Of a stretch of DNA of 64,000 bases, positions 3 to 58,906 are shown one piece after another. Origin of the DNA: an uncultured Acidobacteriota bacterium (GTDB lineage: Bacteria > Acidobacteriota > Vicinamibacteria > Vicinamibacterales > CAVVIG01); the NCBI GenBank assembly GCA_963724695.1, contig CAVRVW010000007.1:46503-110502 (forward strand). The letters are read 5' to 3'. Made by a program: the position numbers and the translations under genes. The notes below the pieces were generated by a model. That model was given only the letters and a program-made list of their open reading frames with translations, had not been told where the DNA came from and made no database searches. Positions within the stretch are counted from its first letter, which is position 1. Each line of letters starts with the position of its first letter.

Positions 3-185
3 ATCGCCGAGCTCAAGAGCAAGTCGATTCGCTACGACGCCGTCCTGACGAAGGACGGCGAGAACCTCGCCTTCGGATCGCTGACCATTGTCTGCGTCAC
101 GCGCAGGCCGGGCGAGCCGATGAAAGCGACGACGATTCCCGCCGACATCTCTTCAAGATTTAGGATTTGGGACTCAGGGACTTAG
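3..185 (+). CDS. hotdog-fold acyl-CoA thioesterase-like protein, C-terminal fragment (5' end outside window)
   Basis: The frame is open from the window edge to TAG 183-185. The tail IAELKSKSIRYDAVLTKDGENLAFGSLTIVCVTRRPGEPMKATTIPADI resembles the last strands of 4HBT/YbgC-type thioesterases, and third codon positions are G/C-rich. The last ~8 codons run into the word repeat at 161-232. Confidence 0.4.
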   Translation: MAELKSKSIRYDAVLTKDGENLAFGSLTIVCVTRRPGEPMKATTIPADISSRFRIWDSGT

Positions 186-232
186 GGATTGACCTCTCAG
201 TCCCTCAGTCCCTCAATCCTCAGTCCTCAATG
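161..232. repeat. imperfect inverted repeat built from short-period words (gggactcag / ctcagtccc)
   Basis: The left arm aggatttgggactcagggacttagggattga faces ctcagtccctcagtccctcaatcct. It lies between convergent genes. Confidence 0.6.
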
Positions 233-604: not shown

Positions 605-1414
605 ATGATCGGCCCCATGGCGGGCATCAAAGTGTTCGTGAGCGTCGGCCGGACGTCGACACCGCAGCAGGAGGGATTTGTCAGCACCATCGAGGCGCAC
701 ATGATCGACCATGGGCTGACGCCGCAGTCGCTCGGTCGAAACTACTGGTCCAGCCAACAGCCGCTCAGGGCCATCGATGAGTTGATGAGCCAGTGTTCCG
801 GGGTCGCGATTGTCGGCTTCGAGCGCCTGCGCGTCGTACAGGCCATCGATCGCCGCGGAAGCGAGAATGAACGCGCGCTGGTGGACTTCGCCCTGCCCAC
901 CGTCTGGAATCAGATTGAGGCGGCGATGGCGTATGCCCGGGGCCTGCCGTTGCTGGTGCTGGTGCAGGAGGAACTTCGGACCGAAGGGCTCCTGGAGACG
1001 GGGTACGACTGGTACGTCAAACGGATGCGCTTGACCACGAGCGCCGTGTCCGACCGCGAGTTCTGCGGCATTTTCGACGACTGGCGCTCTCGGGTGGAAA
1101 GCCACCGCGCGAGCCACGAACCGGCTGCGCGGTCGGGCGAGCACACCGGGAGCTCGCCGACGAGCGTGGCCCAGGCCAAGCCGGAACCGGCACCCCCGCT
1201 CGACCGTCGTCAGCTGCGGAGGATCCTCGAGACCCGGTTCAATGACGACGAGCTGCGCGCCTTGTGCTTCGACCTGAGCGTCGACTACGAGAACCTGCCG
1301 GGGGCGACAAAAGCTGCGAAAGCGATCGAGATCATCACGTATTTCGAGCGCATGAACCAGGTGGGGTCGTTGATGCGCTCGGTCAAGGAGCTGCGTCCTG
1401 ACGAAGCGGTGTAG
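605..1414 (+). CDS. TIR-like (flavodoxin-fold nucleotide-processing) domain protein with C-terminal effector-associated domain (EAD)
   Basis: The N-terminal ~140 aa alternate beta/alpha elements (KVFVSVG, GVAIVGFER, PTVWNQIEAAMAYARGLPLLVLV), with the W-x3-E pattern seen in TIR / nucleoside 2-deoxyribosyltransferase-like folds. A Pro/Ser-rich linker follows. The C-terminal helical module is LRRILETRFNDDELRALCFDLSVDYENLPGATKAAKAIEIITYFERMNQVGSLMRSV. An alternative start is at 617. Confidence 0.65.
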   Translation: MIGPMAGIKVFVSVGRTSTPQQEGFVSTIEAHMIDHGLTPQSLGRNYWSSQQPLRAIDELMSQCSGVAIVGFERLRVVQAIDRRGSENERALVDFALPTVWNQIEAAMAYARGLPLLVLVQEELRTEGLLETGYDWYVKRMRLTTSAVSDREFCGIFDDWRSRVESHRASHEPAARSGEHTGSSPTSVAQAKPEPAPPLDRRQLRRILETRFNDDELRALCFDLSVDYENLPGATKAAKAIEIITYFERMNQVGSLMRSVKELRPDEAV

Positions 1415-1438
1415 ACACCCGCGTCGGACCGACATTAG

Positions 1439-1993
1439 ATGACCAGCGACAACCGGCAGCTCGAGACGCTCTACCAGGCATTGTTGTCCGCCTTTCCCAC
1501 CGAGGGCGAGCTGGAGCGGATGCTTCGCTTCGGCATGGCCGTGAACCTCCCGGAAATCGCCTCCGGCAACCTGTCGAATCAGGTGTTCGCGGTCGTCAGG
1601 TTCGCGGAGGCGCGAGGGCTCCTCCCGACCCTTGTCGAGAGCGCGCTTGCCGCAAGCCCGAACAACGCCGCACTTCGGGCGCTGCCCGACTATCGCACCC
1701 TGGCCCCCGGCACGCCGGTCGCCTCGTCACCGCGACCGGCAATGAGCGTCGACCCAGTCGCGCTCCGCAATGCGATTCAGCGAGCCTACGGACTGGAAGA
1801 ATTGCAGCTGCTCTGCGCAGACATCCAGGAGCGCTGCCTGGCGCGCGGGCATGACATCCGGCTGTCGATCGACGACCTCGGGGGCACGACCAAGCCGGTC
1901 AAGGTGCTGAACCTCATCGAGTTTCTCGCCAGGCGGCGCCTGCTGGACGTGCTCGTCGAAACTGTGCGTGAACAGCGGCCGGGAAGCCTCTGA
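1439..1993 (+). CDS. adaptor-like protein made of two tandem effector-associated domains (EAD1-type plus an EAD matching the C-terminus of the upstream gene)
   Basis: The first module is LETLYQALLSAFPTEGELERMLRFGMAVNLPEIASGNLSNQVFAVVRFAEARGLLPTLVESALAASPNN (EAD1-like pattern). The second is LRNAIQRAYGLEELQLLCADIQ...LSIDDLGGTTKPVKVLNLIEFLARRRLLDVLVETV, the same pattern as the C-terminus of 605..1414. The gene starts 24 nt after the upstream stop. Confidence 0.65.
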   Translation: MTSDNRQLETLYQALLSAFPTEGELERMLRFGMAVNLPEIASGNLSNQVFAVVRFAEARGLLPTLVESALAASPNNAALRALPDYRTLAPGTPVASSPRPAMSVDPVALRNAIQRAYGLEELQLLCADIQERCLARGHDIRLSIDDLGGTTKPVKVLNLIEFLARRRLLDVLVETVREQRPGSL

Positions 1994-1994
1994 T

Positions 1995-2032
1995 ATTGCA
2001 AATTTGCAATCAGCAATTTGCAATCAGCAATT
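1995..2032. repeat. AT-richer palindrome/tandem repeat of tgcaat words between convergent genes
   Basis: attgcaaatttgcaat is a perfect 16-bp palindrome and is followed by cagcaatttgcaat cagcaatt. The repeat fills the whole gap between stop 1993 and stop 2036. Confidence 0.7.
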
Positions 2033-2035
2033 CTT

Positions 2036-3377
2036 CTAGGTGTATCTAACCGTGGTGTGTTCGGGCTTGAAGAAGCGCGGGAGGAGGCTGTCGACGCGCA
2101 GCAGACCCTGGCGGGTCAGCGCAAGGACTTCGCGGCCGGGCTGGAGCCAGCCTTCCTGCTCGAGCGAGGCGAGCGGCGCGCGGAAGCGGTCGACCACGTC
2201 GACGCCGTACTTGGCCTCGAAGTACGACGGCGTGACCCTCCCGAGCTTGAGCTGCAGCACGAACTCGCGGATGAGGCGCTCCTCCGCAGTCGGCCGGAGA
2301 CCGCGCGCCAGCGGGATGTGTCCCTGCTCGATGCTGGCGCAGTAGGCCTCGAACGAGTCGAGGTTCTGCATGTGCACGCCGTTGACGTGCCCGAACGACG
2401 CCACGCCGAGGCCGACCATGTCCGCGCCCTGCCAGAGCCTGTCGCGGTACACGAACTTGGTCGACGGGCTCTTCACCGCCGTGTAGGCCGACCCGATGTG
2501 ATACCCCGCGCGCTCGAGGGCCTCGAAGGCCTCTTCGACCCACCGGCGCTTCGTTGACCAGTTCGCCACGCCGCCATTCGCGCCTGGGCCGGGAACGCCC
2601 TCACCAGCATTCGGCGCCAGCAGGTTCTTGCTGATCGTCGTGTTGAACGGCAGCTCCATCTGGTAGATGGTGATGCTGTCCGGCGCCATGTCGATGGTCT
2701 TCCGAACGCACTCGCGCCAGTTGTCGTCGGTCTCGCCCAGCATGCCGGCGATGAGATCGATGTTGATCTGCGGAAACCCGAGCGTCTGCGCAAACGCGTA
2801 CGCCTTGCCGATCTCACCGGACCGGTGCGCGCGCCCGTTGGCCTCGAGGATCGCGTCGTCGAAGTTCTCGACGCCGAGGCTGAGACGCGTGACGCCGATG
2901 TTCCGGATGGAGGCGAGCTTGTGTTCGGTCAGCGTGCCTGGCTCGCACTCGAAGGTGATCTCTTCGGCCTGCCGCCAGGTGCTGACCGCATCCATGCGCG
3001 ACACGAGGCTCTCGAGCTGCTTGGTGGAGATGTAGGACGGCGTGCCGCCACCGAAGTAGACGAAGTTCAGCGGCCGGCCGGCAATGGCCGCGCTGTTCCG
3101 CGTAGAGCTCCCACTCGCGCGCGAGCGTGTCGAGATATCCCTGCACCTCGGACGCGTTCTTGTCGGTGTAGACGCGGAAGTAGCAGAAGTGGCAGCGCTT
3201 CCGGCAGAACGGGATGTGCAGGTACAGCCCGAGCGGCGTGCCGGCCACCGGCGGAGACGCGAGCGCCGGCCGCGCGTCGGCCTCGACCGCTTCGGGTTTC
3301 CACACGGAGAACGGCGGATAGTTGGCGATGAAGTAGTTGCCGACTTCGGTGCGGTCCACGGCCGGGGAGGTGCTCAT
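2036..3377 (-). CDS. HemN/HemW-like radical SAM protein (coproporphyrinogen III oxidase family), one frame break near 3085
   Basis: ORF pieces 2814..3377 and 2036..3004. They carry the CxxxCxxC motif PFCRKRCHFCYF plus FECEPGTLTEHKLASIRNIGVTRLSLGVENFDD and QINIDLIAGMLGETDD. Removing one g in cagcgcggccattgcc restores AIAGRPLNFVYFGGGTPSYIS. Confidence 0.8.
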
Positions 3378-3386
3378 TCGGTTCCG

Positions 3387-3394: not shown

Positions 3395-3404
3395 AGCTTT
3401 CGCC

Positions 3405-4829: not shown

Positions 4830-4841
4830 CCGGAATACCAC

Positions 4842-29839: not shown

Positions 29840-29945
29840 CGAACAGGGAACAGAGAACAGGGAACTGGGATCGGGGAACAGGGAACAGGGAACAGGGAAC
29901 AGGGAACAGAGAACAGAGAACAGGGAACGGGGATCAGGGAACGGA
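29840..29945. repeat. tandem array of gaacagg words with gggatcgggg interruptions
   Basis: gaacagggaacagagaacagggaactgggatcggggaacagggaacagggaacagggaacagggaacagagaacagagaacagggaacggggatcagggaacgg. It is a one-sided array, the complement of the interior of the 25426-25544 hairpin. Confidence 0.85.
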
Positions 29946-32108
29946 CTGCACGACGGGTCGGCCGGCGCGGTAGAGCGCCAACCGGGCGCGAATCTCTCCG
30001 ACAAGGACCGGCGCTGAGCCGCTGGCGAGCTTTTCTGCGGCTTCGGCTGACGCCACGGCCTCCTGAAACCGTCCGGCGGACGCATACGCCGCGGCGAGCG
30101 AGTCGAGCACCGAAGCGTCCTTTCTTCCAGACAGTTCCGCGGCCCGGGATGCGAGAGCAATCGCCTCATCAGGATTCCTGGCGGCGGCATCGGGATGCGT
30201 GGCCAGCAGCCACGAGAGCTGCGCCATGGCATCGGTCCAGTCGGGACGCGCGACGAGCGCGCTCCTCAACTGCGCGATCGCCTCCGAATACCGATGAAGC
30301 CCGGCGAGCACACGGGCGAGGTTGTAGCGGGCTTCCGGGAACGACGGGCTGATCTGCACCGCGCGCTCGAGGGGCGCGACCGCGTCGGCGAGCCGGCCCG
30401 CGGCAATCTCGGCCACGCCGAGGTTGTAGTGAGGCGAGAGCTCCGTCGGGTCGAGTCGAGTGGCCTCGCGCAAGTGAACGATTGCCTCGTCGACACGTCC
30501 CTGGCTCAGCACGATCTCGCCCACACGGGCGTGCGCGCGTGCGTGCGACGGGTCGAGCCTGAGCGCCTCCCGATACTCCGCCGTCGCCCCGCCCACGTCC
30601 CCTGACGCCTGAAGCGCCGAACCGAGGTTGAACCGCGCTGCCGCGGACCGCGGTTCGAGCCGCACGACCTGCGCGAAGTGCGCGGCCGCCTTCTGCGGCT
30701 GACCGGTCCGGATGTAGAGGACGGCGGCGTCGTTCCTGATCGCCGCGTAGTCCGGGCGCACGGCGATCTGCGTCTCGAGGCCGACGATGGATTCGGCGGT
30801 CATCTTGCGGTCGGTTTCGCCGAAGAGCCGCACGCGATCGGCGTCCGTGCGCGCGAGCAGCTGCACCCAGACGTCGCCCATTTCGTCAGACGATCGGAAC
30901 CCCCACACGACGCGCCTGGGCGGCATGTCCGGGTTGTGCGGGTTGTCGGCGGAGTTGTCGTAGACGTACTCGAGGTGGAGGGCTGTGCCCGCGGGCAGCC
31001 AGAAGGGCTGCGCGTATCGGTACTGGTCCTGCCATTTGAAGTCCCACTGTCGAACGAGGATCAGCCACCGTCTGCTCCCGTCGGGAAGGTCCGCCCATGC
31101 GCGAACCTCACGCGCGCGCAGGTGCGCGTGCGGCTGAACGGCTTGCACTTCGGCGTCCACCGGCAGGGTGAACGAGTCGGAAACGACGTAGGCCTTATCG
31201 CCAGGCGGGATGTCGATGCTCTGGCGGCCCAGCCGCAGCATGACCGGCGTGCGCGTCGGCGGTTCGTTCGTGAAGAAGAGACCGATCGACGGGCGGATCC
31301 GTTCCGGCTTTCCGGTGGCCTGCAGATGCAGTTGCACGAGCAGCGACGAGCCGTTCTCGAGGCGCCAGGAAAGTCCGGCAGGGGCCAGCGGCGGCGCCTG
31401 GCCAGGCGTCCAGCCCAGGAAGTGCCCGTCGGGGAACATCGCCGAGTTCGGGATGAGGCCCGAGTACCCCGCCAGGGGATCCTCATCGTCCAGCCGCCGG
31501 GAGGCTGCCGTCCGGTCCACGAAGATGTTGGCGTGGTGCACGTTGGTGTTGCCCGGCAGGAACTCGAGGCCGCGGACGTACCGCGTGGCAGCCCCCGGCG
31601 CAGCGGGAACATCGACGACGAAGTTGCGGTAGAGATCGGTTTCGCCGGAGGCGGGCACGGTGTATTCGGGAAGCGTGAGCACGAGGTCAGGCTGACCGAC
31701 CTGCCAGCCTGCCGACCAGGTGGGCGCCGGCGGCAGGCGCGAGCGATCGCCTTCGCGCGCCCCGGAGGTGACCCAGCGCTCGATGATCGAGATCTCCTCG
31801 TCGGTGAGGCGGCGCTCGCCGGCGAACTCGCCGTAGCCGGGCTCGGGCCGCCAGGGCGGCATGTAGCGGCTCTTCGTCACGGCGGCGATCTGCCGCGCGC
31901 GAGCGGAGGCTTCCGCGTACGTCACGAGGCTGAAGGGCGCCGATCCGCCGGGGCGGTGGCAGCCGGCGCAGCGCGCGAAGACGATCGGCGCGACGTCGTG
32001 GGAGAAGGTCGATCTCAAGCGGCGTCTGCGCCCCCAACAAGTGCCGGCCAGAACGAGCAGCGAGAAGCGCCAGGCGGCCGGCCATTCGCCAACTGTAGCG
32101 CGGGCCAC
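29934..32108 (-). CDS. PHM/DBH-like copper type II monooxygenase domain protein with N-terminal CxxCH block and C-terminal TPR repeats
   Basis: The track ORF 29934..33152 is trimmed to GTG 32108 (VARATVGEWPAAWRFSLLVLAGTCWG). N-terminal block APIVFARCAGCHRPGGSAPFSL...MPPW. His/Met pattern VHHANIF, LHLQ, QPHAHLRA and SSDEMGDVW, spaced like the CuH/CuM sites of peptidylglycine alpha-hydroxylating monooxygenase. About 8 TPR-like repeats follow. The exact start is uncertain. Confidence 0.7.
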   Translation of the reverse strand: MARATVGEWPAAWRFSLLVLAGTCWGRRRRLRSTFSHDVAPIVFARCAGCHRPGGSAPFSLVTYAEASARARQIAAVTKSRYMPPWRPEPGYGEFAGERRLTDEEISIIERWVTSGAREGDRSRLPPAPTWSAGWQVGQPDLVLTLPEYTVPASGETDLYRNFVVDVPAAPGAATRYVRGLEFLPGNTNVHHANIFVDRTAASRRLDDEDPLAGYSGLIPNSAMFPDGHFLGWTPGQAPPLAPAGLSWRLENGSSLLVQLHLQATGKPERIRPSIGLFFTNEPPTRTPVMLRLGRQSIDIPPGDKAYVVSDSFTLPVDAEVQAVQPHAHLRAREVRAWADLPDGSRRWLILVRQWDFKWQDQYRYAQPFWLPAGTALHLEYVYDNSADNPHNPDMPPRRVVWGFRSSDEMGDVWVQLLARTDADRVRLFGETDRKMTAESIVGLETQIAVRPDYAAIRNDAAVLYIRTGQPQKAAAHFAQVVRLEPRSAAARFNLGSALQASGDVGGATAEYREALRLDPSHARAHARVGEIVLSQGRVDEAIVHLREATRLDPTELSPHYNLGVAEIAAGRLADAVAPLERAVQISPSFPEARYNLARVLAGLHRYSEAIAQLRSALVARPDWTDAMAQLSWLLATHPDAAARNPDEAIALASRAAELSGRKDASVLDSLAAAYASAGRFQEAVASAEAAEKLASGSAPVLVGEIRARLALYRAGRPVVQSVP

Positions 32109-32252
32109 GAAGACACGAAAACACGAAATCGACCAGGTTGCCCGGCAGATTGCCGACATCGCGCTCGCCGGGCTATTGTTGCCCTGCCCAGGGCGGCGCC
32201 GACGTCCGCACTTCAGCGCGTCCGGCGTTCCTTCACATCGGGAGGTCATATC

Positions 32253-33422
32253 GTGAAACGGATAGCCTTCGTCGTCGCCGTTGTCACTCTTGTCTGCCTG
32301 ACGCTCCTGGCGCTGCCGACCCTCCTGATGCCGCCGCTGGAGGCACAGCAGGCGGCGCCGATCGAGGTCCCGAGGATCCCCTTCGAGACCGACATGAACT
32401 TCCTGAAGTACTCCGCCGACATGAACCTCGGCGAGGTGCTCGGCATCGCGGTCAACTCCAAGGGCCACATCGCCGTGCTCAACCACCCTGGAAGCGCGAC
32501 GTCCGGGCCGATGTATGGGAACGCGTCGACGCAGCTCTTCCTCTTCGACGAGACCGGCAAGTTCGTCCGCGAGATCGGCAAGGGGGTCTACGGCCTCGGC
32601 TACTCGCACGGCATCCGCTACGACCGGTACGACAACCTCTGGGTCGTCGACAAGGGCACGCACTCGATCATGCGGTTCAATCCGGCGGGCTACGTGACGA
32701 TGAACCTGGGCCGGCGGCCAGAGGGCCCCGACGATCCGGAGGAGCTGTACTATCGCGGCGGCCGAGGGGGCGACAAGCCGCCCGTCCACCAGGACAGCTA
32801 CTACCGCGGGCCGACCGACGTCGCGTTCGACAGCGACGACAACGCCTACATCAGCGACGGCTACACGAACTCGCGGATCGCGAAGGTGGACAAGAACGGC
32901 AACTGGATCAAGTCGTGGGGCCAGAGAGGCCCCGGCGGCCCGAGCGCCGACCAGAACCCCGGCAACCTCAACACGCCGCACAACATCGGCGTGGATCGCC
33001 AGAACAACGTCTACGTGGCCGATCGCAACAACCGCCGCATCCAGGTGTTCGATCGCGACGGCAACTTCTTGCGCTATATGTTCCAGAATGCGGCGTACGA
33101 CAAGAAGCGGCAGCCCGTCCTCGGCAACATCTCGGCAAACGCGCCTGACCAAACGCAGCCGTGGACGATCTGCATCACGCCCGGGCCGACGCAGTATCTC
33201 TACAGCTCGGACTCAGAGCCCGGGCGGATCTACAAGTTCTCGATGGACGGGAAGCTCCTCGGCACGCTCGGCGAGAGCGGCAGGGGTCCGGGACAGTTCA
33301 ACTGGATCCACGGCATCGCCTGCCCGTCGGAGAACGTGTTGTTTGTCGCGGACATGAATAACTGGCGGGTGCAGAAGCTGACGCTCCGCCCGGGAGGCAA
33401 GCCGGCGACGGCTTCGCGCTGA
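32253..33422 (+). CDS. NHL-repeat six-bladed beta-propeller, peptidyl-alpha-hydroxyglycine alpha-amidating lyase (PAL)-like
   Basis: GTG 32253 is preceded by GGGAGG. Signal anchor VKRIAFVVAVVTLVCLTLLAL. NHL blades are YSHGIRYDRYDNLWVVDKGTHSIMRF, PTDVAFDSDDNAYISDGYTNSRIAKV, TPHNIGVDRQNNVYVADRNNRRIQVF and IHGIACPSENVLFVADMNNWRVQKL. Confidence 0.8.
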   Translation: MKRIAFVVAVVTLVCLTLLALPTLLMPPLEAQQAAPIEVPRIPFETDMNFLKYSADMNLGEVLGIAVNSKGHIAVLNHPGSATSGPMYGNASTQLFLFDETGKFVREIGKGVYGLGYSHGIRYDRYDNLWVVDKGTHSIMRFNPAGYVTMNLGRRPEGPDDPEELYYRGGRGGDKPPVHQDSYYRGPTDVAFDSDDNAYISDGYTNSRIAKVDKNGNWIKSWGQRGPGGPSADQNPGNLNTPHNIGVDRQNNVYVADRNNRRIQVFDRDGNFLRYMFQNAAYDKKRQPVLGNISANAPDQTQPWTICITPGPTQYLYSSDSEPGRIYKFSMDGKLLGTLGESGRGPGQFNWIHGIACPSENVLFVADMNNWRVQKLTLRPGGKPATASR

Positions 33423-33606: not shown

Positions 33607-36581
33607 TCAGGGCTTCAACTCGGCCGTCCAGTTCAGCACGACACGAATAGGGGCAGTCGAGACTGGCGGTTCTCATTTGAGAGACGAGGAAACGTTGGCC
33701 ATCTGCGCTGGCGTCGTACGGGCACGCTGGCCCGGTGGCGCTTTTGGAGTCCCACTCTCGCAGCGGCAGAGTCGATGGAAATAGCTTTTCGGATTTGCCC
33801 ATCGTGAATGCGCCTTCAGTGTTGACCGACACTGCCGTCAGCGCACCGTCCGACTCGAGAAAGAACAGCTCGCGGCCGTCGCGCCGCCATCGTGGGCATG
33901 CGCCGCTTGTCGAGACCACGCGACTGCCTTGCGACGGATCCGGAAACGAGCGTACCGACCAGGTCGTTGGCTCCACGCTCTCGGTCTACGAGGGCGAGCC
34001 AGCGGCCGTTGGGCGAGAGTGCGGCTGTTGTTCTTTCCGTCAGACCGGTGAGATACCGGAAGGCCGCTCGATTGCCCGATGTCGGCTGCGCCCAGAGCTC
34101 GACGCTGGCAGGCTCGTCAGGTTTTGCGGGTTGATTGGGTGTTCTGACGCGCTCAAACAGAATGGTACTCGGCTGTCCAGTCCAGCAGGCCGTATCCGAA
34201 GCCTGGCTCGTGAGGCAACAGCACCCGAGGAGGATCGGCTTGATCCACAAGCTGTTCGTAGATCACGTGCTCGGGGGTGTTTGGTAGGCCGCTGTCGAAG
34301 CCTATCCTTGAGCCATCTGGCGACCAGACAGGCCAGTGTTCGAGGACAGGATCGCTGGCGAGCAGCGTCTTCTGATCGTGGACGATGTCGTAAACCCAGA
34401 TGTCCACATCGACGTCCAGTCGACCATTGCTGAGCGCCACCCGCTTGCCATCGGGCGAGAGCCTGATGAGGGGGGTGTCGAACGAACCGAACGGAGCGCT
34501 CGCTTTGCCGCTCCGCTCGATCCACGACAGCGCGAACCGGTCGGTGTCGCCCGTCGCGGTACGGTACGCCAGGGTCTCCTCGGAGGCCGAAAACGCCCCT
34601 CGGTCGCCGGACGGGCTGTGAAGCAGGTTCTCGCCGAGTGGCGCGGGCTCACCTGACAGTTCTAGGGCCGAGGTGATGAATCGTTGCGCCAGCAGGCGTC
34701 CTTGTCTCGTGAACAGGAGGTAGCCTGGAGGCACGTACATCGCCATCGAATCCGCCGGCATGAGCAGTGTCCGGTCGCTCGAATCGAGCGACCCGACAAA
34801 GATTGCTCGCGCCGAGGGTTGGCTGTCACTCCAGGCCAGAAAGAGGAACCGGCGGCCATCCGGCAGGAATTGTGGCCAGAGATGACCTGTCTCGCCGACT
34901 GCCCGGTCGGCGAAATCGAGCGCGATCGGAACGCCGCCTTCGGCGGGCACGCGATGGAGCGTCACGCCCCGACCCGTCTGAGGAGGTCGGGACAAGGTTC
35001 CCGCACTGGCGAAGAGGATGACGCCGTCCCGGCTCCAGCTGGCACCGGCGAACGTCGTCGGCTCCAAGGCTCGAGCGTAGTCGCAAACGACACGAGCCTC
35101 TCCTCCACTCGCTGCGACGACCTTCAGCTTTCGCTCCAACTGCGATGCGAAACCGACCTGCTGGTTGTCCGGAGACCAGAACGGCGCATGAGCATTTTCG
35201 GTCCCGGGGACCATTCGGGCCTCGAGGGATTCAATCGTCCCTCAGAAACAGCATGGTTGGCCCGCCCGAGGGCGCGGCCACGAACGCGACTGTTCGACCA
35301 TCTGGCGAGACCGCCAGGCCGACCGGGCTGCGGCATCGGAGGCGGTTGAATGGAGAACCGCACCGACGGAGCACCGTCGGTGCGCGACCCGACCCTCGTC
35401 CAGGCCGCTACGGCGGCCGCCACGGTCACGACTGCGAGCGCTCCGACAATCCACGCGGCTCGGCGACGGATGAAGGGAACGTCTGCTCCTTCGGATGCGG
35501 AGGCTCGACTGGAGCGGCCAGCGCATCCTCGATCTCGAGCCGGACATCGCGAGCGTCGCGAATCCGCCAATCGATACCCTTCTCCAGGCAGCGGCGGAGC
35601 ATCCGGCGAATCGCGAGGGGCGTGCTGGCTGGCAGCGCGCGTCCAATCCGGCTCGTGCTCGATCACCTGCGCCAGCACATCGGTGATGGTCTCCCCCACG
35701 AATGCCGCGCGCCCGGTGAGCATCTCGTAGAGCACACAGCCGAACGCCCAGATGTCCGTGGACCGGTCTACGGTCTGTCCGCGCGCCTGCTCCGGGCTCA
35801 TGTACGGCGCGGTCCCGAGAATCTGGCCGCTGACTGTTCGTGCGGAGACCGGCCTCGTCGCCTCGTCGGCGCTCGCCGCGTCGCCGAGGTCCTTGGCGAG
35901 CCCGAAATCCAGGACCTTCACTCACGCCGGCCGGCGTGAACGCGATGTTCGCCGGCTTGAGATCGCGGTGGACGATGCCTTTCTCGTGGGCCGCCTCGAG
36001 CGCCTCGGCGATCTGCCGGGCCACGTCGAGCGCGCGCGGCACGCTCAGCCTGCCGCGTCGTCGCCAGCGTGGCCTTGAGCGTCGGCCCGTCCACCAGCTC
36101 GAGCACCAACGCCTGGACGTCGACGCCGTCGACGATCGCGTTTTCGAACCCGTAGATCGCCGCGATGTGCGGGTGGTTCAGCGCGGCCAGCGTCCGCGCC
36201 TCGCGCTCGAAGCGACGGCGCCGATCCGCATCGAGCGCGAACTCTGGCGATATGACCTTGATCGCGACTGGCCGGCCCAGGCGGGTGTCGCGGGCCCGAT
36301 ACACGCGGCCCATGCCGCCCTCATCAAGGAACGTCTCGACGTCGTACACGCCAAAACGCTTTCCACCGCAGGTCGATGGGCGTCGACTCGACCGCCAGCC
36401 GGCGCGCCGTCGAGAAACCCCTCTCGCCTTCGACGCGTCGGCGAGCAACTTCTCGACCGCCTCACGCACGCGCTCGTCGCCGGCGCAGCTTTCGACGAGG
36501 AAGGCCAGAGCGATCCTCCGGCGCGCGCGCCAGCGCCTCCTCGAACCGCTCCTTGACGATGCGCCATCGTTCCGGCGTCAC
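33607..36581 (-). pseudogene. Ser/Thr protein kinase with TM segment and C-terminal TolB-like (PD40/WD40-like) beta-propeller; frame broken repeatedly
   Basis: GTG 36581 gives VTPERWRIVKERFEEAL. Kinase blocks are spread over pieces 35918..36469 (GGMGRVYRARD..VAIKVI), 35242..36042 ([12 protein letters not shown]) and 35124..35921 (KVLDFGLAK...APYMSPEQ...[15 protein letters not shown]). The propeller is in 34153..35214 and 33230..33976. The terminal VVLNWTAELKP-stop is at 33607. Confidence 0.75.
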
Positions 36582-36583
36582 CC

Positions 36584-37170
36584 TCAGTCCGTCCGCTTGG
36601 AGTCTTTCCGCCCAGCGCCCGTCATCAGCCGTCCGTAGAGCCACGTCCTGGCGATCTTCCACTCGCGGCTGACCGTCGACCGTGATGTGCCAAGCACTTC
36701 GGCCGCCTCTTGCTCGGACAGGCCGCCGAAGTACCCGCAGCTCCACGATGCGGCTCTGCGTGCGATCGAAGGCCTCGAGCTCCGCAAGCGCCTGATCGAG
36801 CAGAAGCACATCGCAGGACGGCGGCTCGACCCGCACCGATCCGGTCGTCGAGGGTGAGCTGCAGGCCCGCGCCGGGGCGTTTGGCCGCCTGACGCGCTCT
36901 GGCGTGGTCGACCAGGATGCGCCGCATCATCTGCGAGGCGACACCAAAAAACTGCGCGCGGTTCTGCCAGCGTGCTTTGTCCTGCCCAATGAGGCGCAGG
37001 TAGGCCTCGTTGACCAGCGCCGTCGGCTGCAGTGTGTGGTTGGGGCGTTCGCGGCGAAGCCGCGCCGCGGCTGCCCGACGCAGCTCGGCATACACGAGGG
37101 GAAGGAGCTCGTCCCTGGACTCCAGATCGCCCCGCCCCCACGCCTGCAGCAGACCGGTGACCGTCGTCAT
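36584..37170 (-). pseudogene. ECF-type RNA polymerase sigma factor, two frame breaks
   Basis: [60 protein letters not shown] (piece 36625..37170), then [24 protein letters not shown] (36462..36836), then [32 protein letters not shown] (36584..37141). The stop lies 2 nt before the kinase GTG. Confidence 0.75.
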
Positions 37171-37324
37171 GACCGGAACAAGGCCCTTCAGCTGCGAATA
37201 GTAGGGTCTGGCCCCCGGTCAGTCAACGCATGTCCGCCTGCGGCTGGCTCCTGACACAGTCCTTCCACGGCTTCCCGCGTTAGACCCCAGCGCGGGCCCA
37301 TCAGGGACGCGCGGGAGGCGCGTC

Positions 37325-37465
37325 ATGACGCTGGGGATGCTGGTGCTGGCCGTGGGAGTCGCGTGCAGTGGCCCGGAGCCCCCGTGCGAGATTCGGGTCT
37401 ACGACCCCCTGCTGATCGAACTGTGCAAGCCGGCCGGCGCGAAGCCGACGAGCGCTTCACGATAG
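37325..37465 (+). CDS. possible small lipoprotein (46 aa)
   Basis: Not in the ORF track because it is under 60 aa. GGGAGG lies 7 nt upstream of the ATG. Product is MTLGMLVLAVGVACSGPEPPCEIRVYDPLLIELCKPAGAKPTSASR with lipobox-like LAVGVAC. Confidence 0.3.
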   Translation: MTLGMLVLAVGVACSGPEPPCEIRVYDPLLIELCKPAGAKPTSASR

Positions 37466-37481
37466 GCTGACGATCGCCCAC

Positions 37482-37572
37482 GGCCACGAAAGCCGCCACG
37501 AAAGCACGAAAAAGACGTAGCGTTCTTCTCGGCCTTCGTGCCTTCGTGTCTTCGTGGCCGGATTTCTTCGTG
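37482..37572. repeat. hairpin of cacgaaa/cttcgtg words
   Basis: ggccacgaaagccgccacgaaagcacgaaaaag ... ggccttcgtgccttcgtgtcttcgtggcc. Confidence 0.8.
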
Positions 37573-37580
37573 GGCTCCGC

Positions 37581-39735
37581 TTAGAAGCTGACCCCCGCGC
37601 GGACGCCGAAGGTCCTCGGCGCGCCGTTCTCCCCCACGAACCCTGACGGCGCCAGGCCTGGATAGGCGAACGCCAGCGGGATGTACTTCGTGTCGAACGC
37701 GTTCCGCAGCCACGCCTCGGCGAACAGCTGCCGCCCGCGCACGCCCGCGCGGAAGTTCGACAGCGAGTACGCGTCCTGCTGCTCGGTGTTCGCATCGTCG
37801 TAGTACATGCCGCCCTTGAAGGAGATGTCGGCCCGGCCGTAGACGTTCAGGCTCGAGCTCACGGCGACGGTGTACTGGCCGCCGAAGTCAGCGGTGTAGT
37901 TCGGCGTGTTCGAGAGCCTGTTTCCGGCGACCGGCACGCCTCCCGACAGGCTGTCGTCGCCGAACGTCGCGTTGGCATAGCCGAGGCCCGCGAAGAAGTC
38001 GCAGCCCGGGGCCAGCCGAGCGTTCATCTCGAGCTCGATGCCCGTGCTCGCGGCGCCGGCCGCGTTCGAGATGTAGAACTGGCCGGGCACGAACGGGTCC
38101 GGCAGGTTCACCTGCATGTCGCTCCAGTCCAGGTGGTAGAAGGTCGCGTTCATCGACATGCGGCGGTCGAACATGAGCGTCTTGACGCCGCCCTCGTAGT
38201 TCCAGGAGTGCTCTTCGCCGTACGCCTCGCTGCCCGCTGGCGACGCCGGGTTGAACCCGCCCGCCTTGAAGCCCTTGGCCGCCGTCGCGTACAGCGTATG
38301 GTCGGACGAAAGGCGGTAGGCGGCGCTGAACTGCGGCGACACGTCGTTGAAGTCGTCTTCGGCGATCACGATCGTCGGCGGCGCGATGGCCGGCGTAAAG
38401 GACGTCAGCAGGTTCGCTTCCTTGTGCTCGAAGTCTCCCCGGAGCGCCACCGTCGCATCGAACCTCGGACCGAAACCCGACCGTGGTCTCGCCGTACAGC
38501 CCGAACCCGCGATCGTCGAGCTCCGCCTGGGGCGACAGCTGGCTCACCGGAAAACCGACGAACTGCGACAGCACGAACGGCGAGTAGCTGTTGACCGCCT
38601 CCTGATCGTAGGCCTGCGTGAAGAACGAGCCGCCGGCCTGCCACTTCAGCGTCATCGTGTCGGAGAGCGACACGCGGCGCGCCTTCGCCGAGGCTACGCG
38701 CACTTCCTGGGTGAACTGGAAGTCCTGCTCGTTGTTGACACGCGTCGCCAGCGGGTACGGCGAATAGTCGAGGTCCGTCGCGTCCTCGGTCTCCCACGAC
38801 ACGAAGCCCGTCGTGGCCGTCAGGTCGATGCCGGAGCCGGTACGGCTCAGCAGCAACGTCGGGGCGACGATGTCACGGTTGGTGTAGCCCTCGTAGTCGC
38901 GCGCGGCGTGAAGTGGATTCGCCCGCAGCGCATCGAGATCGTTGAGCGCGTAGTCGCCATCCCTGGCGCGCTCGGTGGTGACAATCGCGCGGGCCTCCCA
39001 GTTGGACGCCGGCGTCCAGAGCAGTTGTGTCTTGCTGAAGAGGGCCGACCGCGAGTCGAGATCGTTGCCCGTCATGTCGTTGACCGTGAAGCCGTCGCGC
39101 GACGAGTGGCCCAGGGAGAAGCCCAGCGCCAGCTTGTCGGCCACGACAGGGCCGGAGACCGACCCGCGGACGTCCGCCGTGCCGAAGTTGCCGAACGGCC
39201 CGGACACCGCGCCGTGCCAGCCCTGGAGCGACGGCCGGCTGCTCGTGATGTTGATGAGGCCGCCAAGCGTGTTCCGTGCCGAAGAGCGCGCTCTGGGGTC
39301 CGCGCACGAACTCGATCTGGTCGACGTCCGTCAGCTCGATGCTCGACGAGTTGGCGTTCAGCTGCGGCACGCCGTCGATGTACGTCGTCACGCCCGGGTT
39401 GGCCGGGCTCGAGCCCGACGCCGCGGAACCTGGCGTTGCTCAGCTTGCGGGCCGAGAACTCGTTGAAGAACACGTTCGGCGCGTAGTCGCCCGCCTCGCT
39501 CACCGACCGCAGGTTGGCATCGCTCGATGAGTGCCCTCGGCACGACGGTCACGCGACCGGCGCCACCTGCACGTTCTCGGCCTCCTTCTGCGCGGTGACG
39601 GTCAACGTCGGCAGCTGGATTCTTAGCGTCCCATCCGGGTTGGTCTGCGTCTGACTCTGCGACTGTCCGGAGACGACCGGGCGGAAGCACCAGCGCCACC
39701 GCGACAACAAGGATGGGTATGCGGATGTTCGTCAT
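37581..39735 (-). pseudogene. TonB-dependent receptor, frame broken several times
   Basis: Start MTNIRIPILVVAVALVL (ATG at 39735). Plug TTYIDGVPQLNANSSSIELTDVDQIEFVRGPQSALFG (38873..39391). Barrel pieces are 37888..39207 and 37581..38450, ending GAPRTFGVRAGVSF-stop. Confidence 0.75.
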
Positions 39736-58842: not shown

Positions 58843-58906
58843 GCGAAGTCTCCGTCGAAGGTGAGCTCGAATTCGCGAGTGTAGCCGCCAGGGAGAACGT
58901 CACGCC

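What the first reader, a model, noticed from the sequence alone, without database searches (positions are those of the whole stretch)
605..1993. Orphan effector-adaptor pair: TIR-like domain fused to an effector-associated domain, followed by a two-EAD adaptor protein
Seen in sequence: two co-directional ORFs lie 24 nt apart. ORF1 (605..1414) has an N-terminal ~140-aa alternating beta/alpha domain (KVFVSVG; GVAIVGFER; PTVWNQIEAAMAYARGLPLLVLV) with the x-W-x3-E plus hydrophobic-strand pattern that I associate with TIR / nucleoside 2-deoxyribosyltransferase-like NAD/nucleotide-processing folds. A Pro/Ser-rich linker follows, then a ~65-aa helical module (LRRILETRFNDDELRALCFDLSVDYENLPG...IIEIITYFERMNQVGSLMRSV). 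ORF2 (1439..1993) consists only of two such helical modules. The first is an EAD1-like module (LETLYQALLSAFPTEGELERMLRFGMAVNLPEIASGNLSNQVFAVVRFAEARGLLPTLVESALAASPNN). The second has the same pattern as the ORF1 C-terminus (LRNAIQRAYGLEELQLLCADIQ...DDLGG...VLNLIEFLARRRLLDVLVETV). Established knowledge: effector-associated domains (Kaur, Burroughs, Iyer and Aravind 2020) are death-like helical adaptors that couple effectors such as TIR, caspase and trypsin domains to STAND/GTPase NTPases by homotypic contacts in bacterial conflict systems. Inference: ORF1 is an effector, and ORF2 is an adaptor bridging it through the shared EAD type to an EAD1-bearing NTPase. No such NTPase is encoded within this window. 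The flanks are a thioesterase, a small membrane protein and a convergent radical SAM gene. The module is therefore either trans-acting or a minimal, undescribed variant.
Basis: partly seen in the sequence, partly recalled or inferred. Interest (0 to 1): 0.8.

Follow-up and report, generated by a model that had tools for sequence, protein, structure and literature searches.

The report
Satellite immune effector plus bridging adaptor
Two adjacent genes in an Acidobacteriota-like genome encode a probable nucleotide/NAD-attacking enzyme from a family with no Pfam model and a small two-headed adaptor that most likely plugs it into an NTPase immune sensor encoded elsewhere; this is a new variation on a bacterial conflict system so far known only from computational work.

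Summary
ORF1 (605..1414, 269 aa) and ORF2 (1439..1993, 184 aa) are intact, co-directional and 24 nt apart. Pfam places EAD7 on ORF1's C-terminus and EAD1 plus EAD7 on ORF2, all far above the curated cut-offs. ORF1's N-terminal 170 aa belong to a large, highly conserved family (at least 683 clusters) that no Pfam, NCBIfam or PADLOC model hits. A confident AlphaFold model is flavodoxin-like, and its best fold matches are nucleoside 2-deoxyribosyltransferases and TIR domains, though weakly (TM about 0.5). In relatives this domain is fused to EAD7, EAD1, bDLD1 or CHAT, or stands alone. ORF1 and ORF2 are adjacent in about eight contig lineages with at least three different kinds of flank, and fused N-domain–EAD7–EAD1 proteins exist. 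The 64-kb window holds no core NTPase. In a related Acidobacteriota contig, however, an EAD1–iSTAND gene and a MoxR-like AAA+ gene lie 6–8 kb upstream of the pair. EAD1s 49–65% identical to ORF2's over the aligned stretch head NACHT NTPases whose closest relatives carry a TIR in that position. Best reading: a trans-acting satellite effector module with a FADD-like bridging adaptor. This is a new variant of the known EAD-coupled systems. All functional steps are inferred.

The parts
605..1414 (+). ORF1, 269 aa: putative effector protein (N-domain, linker, EAD7). The true start may be the second ATG at 617, because most homologues begin MAGI/MPGI.
   Evidence: more than 680 homologue clusters, the closest at 94% identity over the full length.
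605..1120 (+). N-terminal domain (aa 1 to about 172). It belongs to a TIR/NDT(DRHyd)-like flavodoxin-fold family with no Pfam model. Order of elements: b1(8-13)-aA-b2-aB-b3(66-71)-beta-hairpin insert(75-97)-aC(100-111, WNQIE)-b4(116-121)-b5(137-141)-aE(151-171). Invariant residues include S13, G15, R45, E73, R74, W101, N102, Q103, E105 and D135.
   Evidence: Alignment. AlphaFold with MSA gave pLDDT 90.5 and pTM 0.86. Foldseek results. No Pfam hit in 79 members. Homologues at 30% identity in Halorubrum and Rhodococcus keep S13, E73, W101, N102 and E105.
1121..1213 (+). Pro/Ser/Ala-rich linker (aa about 173-203), predicted disordered.
   Evidence: Read directly from the sequence. pLDDT is below 50 in the single-sequence model, and length and sequence vary among homologues.
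1214..1399 (+). EAD7 (PF19960), aa 204-265: a four-helix module.
   Evidence: 76.6 bits, E 1.2e-21, model positions 1-62 of 62. In the single-sequence AlphaFold model the helices are 201-211, 214-223, 236-249 and 253-263, with pLDDT 73-84.
1415..1438 (+). 24-nt intergenic spacer. No promoter-like or terminator-like site was found, so the two genes are probably co-transcribed.
1439..1993 (+). ORF2, 184 aa: an adaptor-only protein (EAD1, linker, EAD7) with no enzymatic domain.
   Evidence: The family is narrow (22 hits) and essentially all members have the same architecture of about 185 aa.
1448..1687 (+). EAD1 (PF19955), aa 4-83.
   Evidence: 72.1 bits, E 5e-20. It is 49-65% identical (best local alignment, covering 74% and 46% of ORF2) to the EAD1 of the EAD1-P-loop fragments P0140 and P0141.
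1763..1981 (+). EAD7 (PF19960), aa 109-181: a divergent subtype with an insert of about 11 residues relative to ORF1's EAD7.
   Evidence: 54.2 bits, E 1.3e-14, matched in two stretches. BLASTP against ORF1's EAD7 gives 26% identity, E 4e-8.

Best explanation
The two genes form a satellite effector module of an EAD-coupled, NTPase-controlled conflict (anti-invader or programmed cell death) system. ORF1 is the effector. It has an N-terminal Rossmannoid domain of the TIR/deoxyribosyltransferase (DRHyd) fold class and probably acts as an N-glycosidase on NAD+ or a nucleotide/nucleoside, using the invariant Glu105 (WNQIE) and possibly Glu73. It is tagged with a C-terminal EAD7. ORF2 has no enzyme and is a two-headed adaptor. 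Its EAD7 would bind ORF1's EAD7, and its EAD1 would bind the EAD1 on a core component encoded elsewhere in the genome. That core could be the iSTAND subunit of a vWA-MoxR-iSTAND ternary system or a NACHT/NB-ARC STAND NTPase. When the core senses an invader and oligomerises, the adaptor would recruit and concentrate ORF1. ORF1 would then deplete or convert its nucleotide substrate, giving growth arrest, death or a second messenger. ORF2 thus plays the role FADD plays in animals, where a Death domain plus a DED bridges receptor and caspase. What is shown: gene structure, domain identities, the fold class of the N-domain, conservation of the pair, the fusion variants, and the existence and occasional linkage of EAD1-bearing cores. 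What is inferred: every protein-protein contact, the catalytic activity and its substrate, the defence role, and the presence of a core in this particular genome.
For: (1) The Pfam EAD7 and EAD1+EAD7 assignments are far above the gathering cut-offs. (2) ORF1 and ORF2 are adjacent in the window, L001, L005/6, L007/8/11, L010, L027, L028 and L029. The flanks are of at least three unrelated kinds: radical SAM/aldehyde dehydrogenase, or metallophosphatase/GMC oxidoreductase/peptidase M10, or a ternary-system neighbourhood. (3) Single proteins with N-domain+EAD7+EAD1 exist (P0021-P0027, L009, L030), and others have the N-domain fused directly to EAD1 (P0067, P0076) or to bDLD1 (P0081). The same domain is therefore hooked to interchangeable adaptors, which is the effector-position behaviour defined by Kaur et al. 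2020 (PMC7159879). (4) The N-domain has a flavodoxin-like fold (pLDDT 90.5), and its top Foldseek hits are NDTs, DNPH1, TIR and CAP12/Pycsar TIR-like proteins (E down to 2.5e-5). An invariant W-x3-E sits at the N-terminus of the helix after the third core strand plus insert and is retained in homologues at 30% identity. (5) In L010 the same contig carries, on the same strand upstream of the pair, EAD1-iSTAND (PF19955 51.8 bits, PF19995 25.9 bits) and a MoxR-like AAA_5 ATPase. That EAD1 is 34% identical to the local ORF2 EAD1 (E 1e-14). EAD fusions to the N-termini of iSTAND components are a published core architecture. (6) P0140 and P0141 carry EAD1s 49-65% identical to ORF2's over the aligned stretch, followed by a Walker A motif. 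Full-length relatives are EAD1-NACHT, some with WD40 repeats. The same NACHT subfamily also occurs as TIR_2-NACHT, so a TIR occupies the slot that the EAD1 otherwise fills. L012 encodes EAD1-NB-ARC. (7) L007 has an EAD1-trypsin effector gene 3.6 kb from the pair, showing an EAD1 network in that genome. (8) Distant stand-alone homologues sit beside TIR genes and a nucleotide cyclase gene in Halorubrum pHLAC01, and beside a TIR-like ORF in Rhodococcus pRHL1. Another stand-alone form lies two genes from a SIR2-nSTAND1-TPR pair. (9) Kaur et al. state that additional EAD-tagged genes are commonly encoded elsewhere in the genome and correlate with a cognate EAD on a core.
Against: No core NTPase and no other EAD is present in the 64-kb window. 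The rest of the source genome could not be read, so a cognate EAD1 core in this organism is assumed, not shown. In most sampled loci no core lies within 10 kb. In L010 the core and the pair are separated by two unrelated genes, and the protein in the vWA position has no recognisable vWA domain. ORF2's EAD7 is a divergent subtype: it is 26% identical to ORF1's and no closer to it than to EAD7s from Chloroflexota homologues. That does not fit the published tendency for adjacent EAD copies to be each other's closest relatives. No TIR or NDT sequence profile matches the N-domain, hhalign against TIR_2 gives probability 2.7%, and fold-match TM scores are only about 0.5. The catalytic assignment therefore rests on fold class plus conserved residues. 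No PADLOC defence model hits either protein. No EAD interaction has been demonstrated experimentally in the literature I could search.
Confidence: 0.6

Rival explanations
1. The pair is an autonomous two-gene system that needs no NTPase. ORF2 self-assembles through its EAD1 (death-fold-like polymerisation) in response to some cue and nucleates ORF1 through EAD7, so the pair is a complete minimal module.
For: The pair is the only unit conserved across loci with different flanks, and most loci have no core within 10 kb. The ORF2 family is narrow and co-distributed with the ORF1 clade. Fused N-domain-EAD7-EAD1 proteins also occur alone.
Against: Nothing in either protein looks like a sensor or switch. 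By published analysis, EADs come with a cognate copy on a core component. Near-cognate EAD1 occurs on NACHT, NB-ARC and iSTAND proteins, once on the same contig as the pair. L007 has a second EAD1-tagged effector (trypsin) nearby, implying a shared hub.
Confidence: 0.15
2. The N-domain is not the executioner. It is a nucleotide-binding sensor or a signal-generating module, as proposed for TIR/DRHyd/SLOG domains at the N-termini of VMAP and iSTAND proteins. The pair would then feed a signal into the system, or regulate it, rather than kill.
For: In about 9 of 79 relatives the N-domain is fused upstream of a CHAT caspase-like protease, itself a typical effector. Many stand-alone copies of about 170 aa exist without obvious immunity or antitoxin partners. 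Kaur et al. assign TIR/DRHyd/SLOG-fold domains a second-messenger-generating role in some architectures. The Halorubrum homologue sits next to a nucleotide cyclase gene.
Against: According to Kaur et al., EAD1 and EAD7 primarily recruit effectors, whereas EAD2, EAD6 and EAD9 recruit signalling components. The TIR_2-NACHT relatives put an NADase-type effector in the equivalent slot. The tools used here cannot separate binding from catalysis.
Confidence: 0.17
3. The genes have nothing to do with conflict. ORF1 would be a housekeeping nucleotide-salvage enzyme of the deoxyribosyltransferase type with a helical tail, and ORF2 an unrelated helical protein.
For: The flanking genes are metabolic (thioesterase, radical SAM, aldehyde dehydrogenase, glycosyltransferase). 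The best fold hits include genuine salvage NDTs. There is no PADLOC hit.
Against: The EAD1 and EAD7 hits are strong and specific. The same N-domain is fused to CHAT, bDLD1 and EAD1. Its distribution is patchy and its genomic contexts vary. It co-occurs with TIR, SIR2-STAND and iSTAND/MoxR genes.
Confidence: 0.05

Closest known systems
EAD-coupled effectors of NTP-dependent conflict systems (Kaur, Burroughs, Iyer and Aravind 2020, eLife 9:e52696; PMC7159879)
   Same: ORF1 is a putative enzyme tagged with a small all-helical EAD. A second gene carries the same EAD type. Such genes are often scattered in the genome away from the core, and the same effector domain swaps between EAD1, EAD7 and bDLD1 in relatives. 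EAD1-iSTAND, MoxR and EAD1-trypsin are found in related contigs.
   Different: The published principle is one-step: the core carries EADx and the effector carries EADx. Here the partner gene is an adaptor-only protein with two different EADs (EAD1+EAD7) and no enzyme or core domain, which implies a two-step relay. I did not find such a protein described in the main text of either Kaur paper. The effector domain itself has no Pfam model.
FADD (Death domain + DED) and similar bipartite death-fold adaptors of animal apoptosis and innate immunity
   Same: Both are small proteins made only of two different homotypic-interaction helical modules, placed between a sensor or receptor complex and an enzyme effector. 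Kaur et al. 2021 (PMC8195603) draw the general parallel between EADs and Death domains.
   Different: There is no detectable sequence homology to DD or DED. EAD1 and EAD7 are shorter (about 60-90 aa, about four helices in the EAD7 model). The interaction is inferred, not shown. The downstream enzyme is a Rossmannoid domain, not a caspase.
TIR domains (PF01582, PF13676) and TIR-like CAP12/Pycsar and ThsB domains
   Same: Both have the flavodoxin-like alpha/beta fold, a hydrophobic first strand followed by Ser (VFVSVG against the TIR 'FISY' type), a W-x3-E motif at the start of the helix after the third strand, and use as an effector or signal generator with STAND NTPases. TIR_2 occupies the EAD1 slot in the closest NACHT relatives.
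   Different: No sequence-profile match was found. A 23-residue beta-hairpin is inserted between strand 3 and the WxxxE helix. Additional invariant residues (R45, E73-R74, N102-Q103, D135-W136) are not TIR hallmarks. TM scores are only 0.39-0.57.
Nucleoside 2-deoxyribosyltransferase / DNPH1 (DRHyd) superfamily (PF05014 and relatives)
   Same: These are the best Foldseek E-values in both libraries: T. brucei NDT 2a0k at 2.2e-4, and a viral NDT at 2.5e-5. In both, a Glu at a helix N-terminus is followed about 8 residues later by Gly and a hydrophobic strand. Kaur et al. list DRHyd domains among effector and signalling modules of these systems.
   Different: No Pfam NDT-family profile hit was found. 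TM is about 0.45-0.55 with high rmsd. The canonical NDT residues were not checked by superposition. The comparison of the E-x7-G motif with NDT rests on my memory of NDT sequences and is a lead, not a test.
vWA-MoxR-iSTAND ternary system (Kaur et al. 2020)
   Same: In L010 an EAD1-iSTAND gene and an overlapping MoxR-like AAA+ gene lie upstream of, and co-directional with, a homologous ORF1-ORF2 pair.
   Different: None of these components is in the window. In L010 the third gene (849 aa, two predicted TM segments) shows no vWA signature, and two unrelated genes separate the system from the pair.

Membership tests
EAD7 (Pfam PF19960) | Sequence match to the family profile above the curated threshold | tested here: met
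   ORF1 aa 204-265 scores 76.6 bits against a cut-off of 32 and covers the full model. ORF2 aa 109-181 scores 54.2 bits against 32.
EAD7 (Pfam PF19960) | Small, non-enzymatic, all-alpha domain at a protein terminus | tested here: met
   It is C-terminal in both proteins. The AlphaFold single-sequence model shows four helices with pLDDT 73-84.
EAD7 (Pfam PF19960) | [quoted passage not shown] | tested here: met
   ORF1 and ORF2 both carry EAD7 and are adjacent in about eight contig lineages. The two copies are only 26% identical.
EAD7 (Pfam PF19960) | Adjacent copies are each other's closest relatives | tested here: not met
   ORF2's EAD7 scores about equally (roughly 20 bits) against the EAD7 of its own neighbour clade and against EAD7s from Chloroflexota homologues.
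EAD1 (Pfam PF19955) | Sequence match to the family profile above the curated threshold | tested here: met
   ORF2 aa 4-83 scores 72.1 bits against a cut-off of 24.2.
EAD1 (Pfam PF19955) | A cognate copy fused to a core component (VMAP, iSTAND, GAP1, Ubl or STAND NTPase) in the same genome | not testable with these tools
   None is in the 64-kb window, and the source contig and genome could not be fetched. The feature is met in a related contig: L010 has EAD1-iSTAND with MoxR-like AAA+. EAD1-NACHT and EAD1-NB-ARC with related EAD1s also exist.
TIR superfamily (PF01582, PF13676, PF10137, PF08937) | Match to a TIR or TIR-like sequence profile | tested here: not met
   None of 79 family members hits any TIR model at E<=5. 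hhalign against a 10-sequence TIR_2 alignment gives probability 2.7%, P = 0.017. Comparisons with the Halorubrum TIR neighbours found no similarity.
TIR superfamily (PF01582, PF13676, PF10137, PF08937) | Flavodoxin-like alpha/beta fold with five parallel strands | tested here: inconclusive
   The model is confident (pLDDT 90.5) and alternates beta and alpha elements. TIR structures appear among the hits (7fcc TMq/TMt 0.55/0.65; SfSTING 7un8 0.49; a viral TIR 0.57), but with E-values of 1e-3 to 1e-2 and alongside NDTs and flavodoxins.
TIR superfamily (PF01582, PF13676, PF10137, PF08937) | Catalytic Glu in the helix after strand C (W/C-x-x-E context) | tested here: inconclusive
   W101 and E105 are invariant at the start of helix 100-111 and are retained in homologues at 30% identity. 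No residue-level structural superposition was possible.
Nucleoside 2-deoxyribosyltransferase / DRHyd (PF05014 and relatives) | Match to an NDT-family sequence profile | tested here: not met
   There was no Pfam hit for ORF1 or any of the 79 relatives and no PDB sequence-profile hit.
Nucleoside 2-deoxyribosyltransferase / DRHyd (PF05014 and relatives) | Structural similarity to solved or predicted NDT/DNPH1 folds | tested here: inconclusive
   These give the best E-values in both libraries (2a0k 2.2e-4; BFVD NDT 2.5e-5; 6evs, 8rh3 and 9i9q also listed), but TM is 0.35-0.57 and rmsd 4-10 A.
vWA-MoxR-iSTAND ternary conflict system | MoxR AAA+, vWA and iSTAND genes in one neighbourhood | tested here: not met
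   The window has none of the three. In the related L010, iSTAND (25.9 bits against a cut-off of 24) and AAA_5 are present, but the 849-aa third protein has no vWA hit.
Catalogued anti-phage defence systems (PADLOC-DB v2) | Match to a PADLOC protein model | tested here: not met
   No hit for either protein at E<=1.

The most novel reading that the evidence does not exclude
ORF2 is a bacterial counterpart of FADD-type bipartite adaptors: a protein made only of two different death-like modules. It would convert an EAD1 signal from an NTPase hub (iSTAND/MoxR or NACHT/NB-ARC) into recruitment of an EAD7-tagged enzyme, giving a two-step adaptor relay not described in the main text of the two Kaur papers for prokaryotic immunity. 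The enzyme it recruits would be the founding member of an uncatalogued TIR/DRHyd-fold N-glycosidase family (at least 683 clusters across Acidobacteriota, Chloroflexota, Actinomycetota and haloarchaea) with its own active-site signature (S13, E73-R74, W101-N-Q-x-E105, D135).
Probability: 0.4. Interest if true: 0.7.

Novelty: new variant of a known kind. Interest (0 to 1): 0.55.

Why it matters
EAD-coupled systems are a purely computational prediction. As far as I could find, nobody has shown that EADs bind each other or that they deliver effectors. This pair is an unusually clean and small test case. It comprises one enzyme domain, three helical modules and two short proteins, and it gives a clear prediction: EAD7 binds EAD7, and EAD1 binds the EAD1 of an iSTAND or NACHT core. 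If ORF2 does act as a bridging adaptor, multi-step death-fold-like adaptor relays, a hallmark of animal apoptosis and inflammasome signalling, would also exist in bacteria. The N-domain is a large, strongly conserved family that the Pfam, NCBIfam and PADLOC releases searched here do not cover. Defining its substrate would add a new member to the TIR/NDT/SLOG group of nucleotide-targeting immune enzymes.

Tried and rejected
(1) Single-sequence AlphaFold of full-length ORF1 failed for the N-domain (pLDDT below 50 for residues 1-196). Only the EAD7 part was usable, so I repeated the prediction with a 79-sequence alignment.
It was uninformative.
(3) The genome-contig scan used a single peptide pattern and returned 6 loci. 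It could not enumerate all EAD1 proteins of the MAGs that carry the pair. The metagenome scan returned only 4 short contigs.
(4) The window's own source contig (414 kb) could not be fetched. P0141 is not on record.
(5) The 1304-aa ORF at 56712..60626 (-) with a Walker A motif looked like a candidate NTPase partner. It is a composite of several frames in GC-rich DNA. The only domain is a classical AAA (PF00004), and there is no EAD. I rejected it as a partner.
(6) The TPR ORF at 29934..33152 (-) has no P-loop and overlaps an NHL-repeat gene on the other strand. It is not a STAND.
(7) The 940-aa gene without a Pfam hit next to the pair in L007 corresponds, at the same position in L010, to a 942-aa ORF whose sequence reads like a secreted beta-propeller (read by eye, not tested against any profile). 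I rejected it as a core.
(8) The 1365-aa protein directly upstream of the N-domain-EAD7 gene in L023 has a Walker A motif and sub-threshold NPHP3_N and nSTAND5 hits but no EAD7. It is suggestive of a STAND neighbour but is not evidence for EAD coupling.
(9) Profile-sequence comparisons of the N-domain with the two Halorubrum TIR neighbours found nothing.
(10) The PDB sequence-profile search with the N-domain family found nothing meaningful.
(11) The promoter and terminator consensus scans around the pair were uninformative.


Full report
OBSERVATION. The window is 67% GC. Both have the coding signature of the real genes in this window (GC3 0.83-0.85, GC2 0.46). Both align end to end with database homologues. 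The flanks are a 4HBT thioesterase (truncated by the window start), an 80-aa protein on the opposite strand and a convergent radical SAM gene. I confirmed this by synteny with a contig whose ORF1 product is 94% identical to the window's (the DNA is 87% identical over 4 kb) (L001).

DOMAIN IDENTITIES. Pfam assigns EAD7 (PF19960) to ORF1 aa 204-265 (76.6 bits, E 1.2e-21, the whole 62-position model). It assigns EAD1 (PF19955) to ORF2 aa 4-83 (72.1 bits) and EAD7 to ORF2 aa 109-181 (54.2 bits). All three are well above the curated cut-offs. NCBIfam and PADLOC have nothing for either protein. The two EAD7 copies are recognisably related but distant: 26% identity, E 4e-8, with an 11-residue insert in ORF2.

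THE N-TERMINAL DOMAIN OF ORF1. A homologue search returned 683 clusters at E<=1e-3. The first ~170 residues are very strongly conserved. Invariant positions include F11, S13, G15, R45, P53, E73, R74, W101, N102, Q103, E105, D135, W136 and W160. None of 79 diverse members hits any Pfam model in this region, and a profile search of PDB sequences finds nothing.

A single-sequence AlphaFold run failed for this part. With the 79-sequence alignment the model is confident (pLDDT 90.5, pTM 0.86). It is an alternating beta/alpha domain: b1(8-13)-aA-b2-aB-b3(66-71), then a beta-hairpin insert (75-82 and 90-97), then aC(100-111), b4(116-121), b5(137-141) and a long C-terminal helix.

Foldseek against the PDB gives weak matches (TM 0.35-0.55) spread over nucleoside 2-deoxyribosyltransferases (2a0k, E 2.2e-4; 6evs; 8rh3), DNPH1 (9i9q), TIR domains (SfSTING 7un8, 7fcc, BtpA, Roq1) and flavodoxins. 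Against BFVD the top hits are again NDTs (E 2.5e-5), TIR proteins and a CAP12/Pycsar TIR-like protein, with TM 0.49-0.57. The invariant W101-x3-E105 lies at the N-terminus of helix aC. It survives in homologues at 30% identity from Halorubrum lacusprofundi pHLAC01 and Rhodococcus jostii pRHL1, as do S13 and E73.

My conclusion is that the domain belongs to the TIR/DRHyd(NDT)/flavodoxin-like fold class and carries an enzyme-like set of invariant polar residues. It is not a member of any catalogued TIR or NDT sequence family, and the tools used here cannot tell TIR-like from NDT-like.

WHAT THE DOMAIN IS FUSED TO. Across the family the C-terminal partner changes:
- EAD7: 26 of 79 members.
- CHAT caspase-like protease: 9.
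- EAD1: 7.
- bDLD1, the bacterial Death-like domain: 4.
- Nothing: many stand-alone proteins of 170-250 aa.
Proteins of about 363 aa carry N-domain+EAD7+EAD1 in one chain (P0021-P0027, L009 and L030). A constant enzyme-like domain with interchangeable adaptor tags is the behaviour Kaur et al. (2020) used to define the effector position in EAD-coupled systems (PMC7159879). The same paper lists 'TIR-deoxyribonucleotide hydrolase-SLOG fold' domains among effector and signalling modules.

CONSERVATION OF THE PAIR. ORF2's family is narrow: 22 hits, essentially all EAD1+EAD7 proteins of about 185 aa. Wherever an ORF2 homologue has upstream sequence, an ORF1 homologue lies immediately 5' of it. This holds in the window, L001, L005/L006, L007/L008/L011, L010, L027, L028 and L029. 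The flanks differ between these loci. Some have radical SAM and aldehyde dehydrogenase, L007 has metallophosphatase, GMC oxidoreductase and peptidase M10, and L010 has a ternary-system neighbourhood. The pair is therefore the conserved unit. Two of these contigs are labelled Acidobacteriota MAGs, so the window is probably from that phylum. More distant ORF1 homologues in Chloroflexota (L002, L023) lack ORF2.

WHERE IS THE CORE? The window has none. A six-frame Walker A scan found only an ABC ATPase, one chance match and a classical AAA gene. A Pfam survey of the large ORFs found malate synthase, CHASE2-HD, DUF1800, amylase, TonB receptor, TPR, NHL and PQQ proteins, but no STAND, MoxR or vWA. 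Profile searches found no other EAD copy. Three lines of evidence show what the EAD1 of ORF2 is likely to dock onto.

(a) P0140 and P0141 are fragments with an EAD1 49-65% identical to ORF2's (best local alignment) followed by 'LLILGAPGSGKTTVLLQLM'. An exhaustive HMMER search with P0140 recovered full-length EAD1-NACHT proteins of 610-938 aa and an EAD1-NTPase-WD40 protein. It also recovered the same NACHT subfamily with TIR_2 in place of EAD1. In that NTPase family, therefore, a TIR effector is either fused directly or replaced by an EAD1 docking site.

(b) L012 (Chloroflexia) encodes EAD1-NB-ARC.

(c) L010 is the strongest case. This Acidobacteriota contig carries a 70%-identical ORF1 and its ORF2 at 9163-10564. 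On the same strand upstream it also carries an EAD1-iSTAND protein (about 1062-2213; EAD1 51.8 bits, iSTAND 25.9 bits against a cut-off of 24), an overlapping MoxR-like AAA_5 ATPase (2194-3078), an 849-aa protein with two predicted TM segments (3056-5605) and a 345-aa protein. EAD-iSTAND plus MoxR is a published core architecture. The iSTAND EAD1 and the local ORF2 EAD1 are 34% identical (E 1e-14).

There are caveats. The 849-aa protein has no vWA signature. Two unrelated genes separate that operon from the pair. This linkage was seen in only one of the sampled lineages.

L007 has an EAD1-trypsin gene 3.6 kb from its pair, so several EAD1-tagged effectors coexist in that lineage. Kaur et al. 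state explicitly that extra EAD-tagged genes are often encoded elsewhere in the genome and correlate with a cognate EAD on a core component.

OTHER CONTEXT. The Halorubrum stand-alone homologue lies between two annotated TIR-domain genes and an adenylate/guanylate cyclase gene, in an island that also has DUF262, PIN and 8xMP membrane-protein genes. The Rhodococcus homologue has an upstream ORF with a TIR-like 'DWVRNEIELSL...IPIIFG' segment fused to a pterin-4a-carbinolamine dehydratase domain. A stand-alone bacterial form (P0118) lies two genes from a SIR2_2 plus nSTAND1-TPR pair. An N-domain-EAD7 gene in L023 is directly preceded by a 1365-aa protein with a Walker A motif and sub-threshold STAND hits but no EAD7. 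A CHAT fusion (L022) and a fused EAD7+EAD1 form (L009) are solitary.

MECHANISM (best explanation, confidence about 0.6). ORF1 is an EAD7-tagged effector whose Rossmannoid N-domain probably cleaves an N-glycosidic bond in NAD+ or a nucleotide/nucleoside. ORF2 is an adaptor-only bridge, with its EAD7 binding ORF1 and its EAD1 binding the EAD1 of an NTPase-controlled core encoded elsewhere. Activation and oligomerisation of the core would recruit and concentrate the effector.
- Shown here: the architecture, the fold class, conservation of the pair, the fusion variants, and the existence and occasional linkage of EAD1 cores.
- Inferred: all binding events, the catalysis and its substrate, the defence phenotype, and the presence of a core in this genome.
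- A real weakness: ORF2's EAD7 is a separate subtype, no closer to its neighbour's EAD7 than to EAD7s from Chloroflexota homologues. This departs from the published tendency of adjacent EADs to be closest relatives.

RIVALS. An autonomous two-gene module (0.15) is not excluded, because most loci lack a nearby core. The N-domain could be a sensor or signal generator rather than the executioner (about 0.17), which its fusion to CHAT proteases and its many stand-alone copies would suit. A housekeeping salvage enzyme (0.05) is hard to reconcile with the EAD, CHAT and bDLD1 fusions.

COMPARISON WITH THE KNOWN, AND NOVELTY. The EAD1 and EAD7 families, scattered EAD-tagged effectors and EAD-iSTAND cores are all described (Kaur et al. 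2020 and 2021). Three things appear not to be catalogued.
(i) The N-domain family has no Pfam, NCBIfam or PADLOC model, and PGAP calls its members 'hypothetical protein'.
(ii) ORF2 is an adaptor-only protein with two different EADs, which implies a two-step relay. The EAD section of the 2020 paper (read in full), term searches of the 2021 main text, and the passages I retrieved from the rest of both papers describe one-step coupling and multiple EADs on VMAP cores, but not such bridges. I did not check supplementary tables, and Pfam architecture listings probably already show EAD1+EAD7 proteins.
(iii) Multi-EAD scaffold proteins (7xEAD1+EAD7 in P0157; 6xEAD1+EAD7 in P0158) show that EAD-only proteins are a broader phenomenon.
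I found no experimental study of any EAD interaction. I therefore rate this a new variant of a known kind, of moderate interest (0.55). It is a well-supported and compact test case for an untested model, but it is not a surprise to specialists in the field.

Noticed in passing
window 2036..3377 (-), junction near 3089-3092: The convergent HemN-like radical SAM gene is split between two reading frames. Residues 22-64 of the L001 orthologue match frame -3 (3221..3093) and residues 66-415 match frame -1 (3088..2039). This is either a frameshift pseudogene or an assembly indel. L001's own gene call also has an odd N-terminus, so indel errors in these assemblies are plausible.
   Followed up: partly
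window about 158..232 (+), between the thioesterase gene end and the stop of the 80-aa minus-strand gene: A long, near-perfect hairpin (GGGACTCAGGGACTTAGGGATTGA...TCAGTCCCTCAGTCCCTCAATCC) folds at -39.4 kcal/mol, z = -4.75 against shuffles. It is probably a bidirectional terminator or a REP-like element.
   Followed up: partly
window 1994..2035, especially 2001..2028: An AT-rich island in a 67% GC genome lies between the convergent ORF2 and radical SAM genes. It holds a perfect tandem 14-mer, AATTTGCAATCAGC x2, which contains palindromic TTGCAA cores. Its predicted fold is modest (-13.3 kcal/mol, z = -1.7). It could be a protein-binding site or a terminator.
   Followed up: partly
window 56712..60626 (-): An apparent 1304-aa ORF is a composite. 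In-frame segments encode a classical AAA (PF00004) ATPase (Walker A GRIGTGKT), interrupted by Arg-rich out-of-frame-looking stretches. A coiled-coil-looking ORF overlaps at 58106..58594 (-). This may again reflect indels or overlapping frames in GC-rich DNA.
   Followed up: partly
P0157 (989 aa) and P0158 (1226 aa): These proteins are made of 6-7 tandem EAD1 domains plus an EAD7 with no other Pfam domain. They are potential multivalent EAD scaffolds or hubs.
   Followed up: partly
P0165, P0166, P0186 compared with P0160, P0164, P0171, P0264: One NACHT subfamily occurs with either TIR_2 or EAD1 at the N-terminus. The linker and P-loop region (residues 103-199 of P0140) is 49-59% identical between P0140 and the TIR_2-headed proteins. 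This is a clean example of direct effector fusion against adaptor docking.
   Followed up: partly
L010 3056..5605 (+): An 849-aa protein sits in the position where a vWA component is expected, downstream of EAD1-iSTAND and MoxR-like AAA+. It has a poly-Pro tract, two predicted TM segments and no Pfam or PDB sequence match. It could be a divergent or novel third component.
   Followed up: partly
L016 (Halorubrum lacusprofundi pHLAC01, record 36057..39580): A compact archaeal cluster reads: 8xMP membrane protein and a TIR gene on one strand, then divergently a TIR gene, the stand-alone N-domain homologue (WP_012660041) and an adenylate/guanylate cyclase gene. DUF262, PIN and an ISH3 transposase lie nearby. 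It looks like an uncharacterised haloarchaeal defence island.
   Followed up: no
L017 6736..7419 (+) (Rhodococcus jostii pRHL1): This ORF combines a TIR-like C-terminal segment with a pterin-4a-carbinolamine dehydratase domain (PF01329, E 7e-19). It lies directly upstream of the stand-alone N-domain homologue. The fusion is unusual.
   Followed up: no
P0136 (198 aa): This protein joins a Ser/Thr kinase C-lobe fragment to the second half of an ORF2-like EAD1 and a complete EAD7. It is either a real kinase-EAD fusion or an assembly chimera on a 1.4-kb contig.
   Followed up: no
L023 5660..9757 (+): A 1365-aa protein has an N-terminal Walker A motif (GEPGMGKS) and sub-threshold NPHP3_N and nSTAND5 hits. 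It lies 244 nt upstream of, and co-directional with, an N-domain-EAD7 gene, and a PemK toxin gene lies downstream. It may be a STAND partner lacking a recognisable EAD7.
   Followed up: partly
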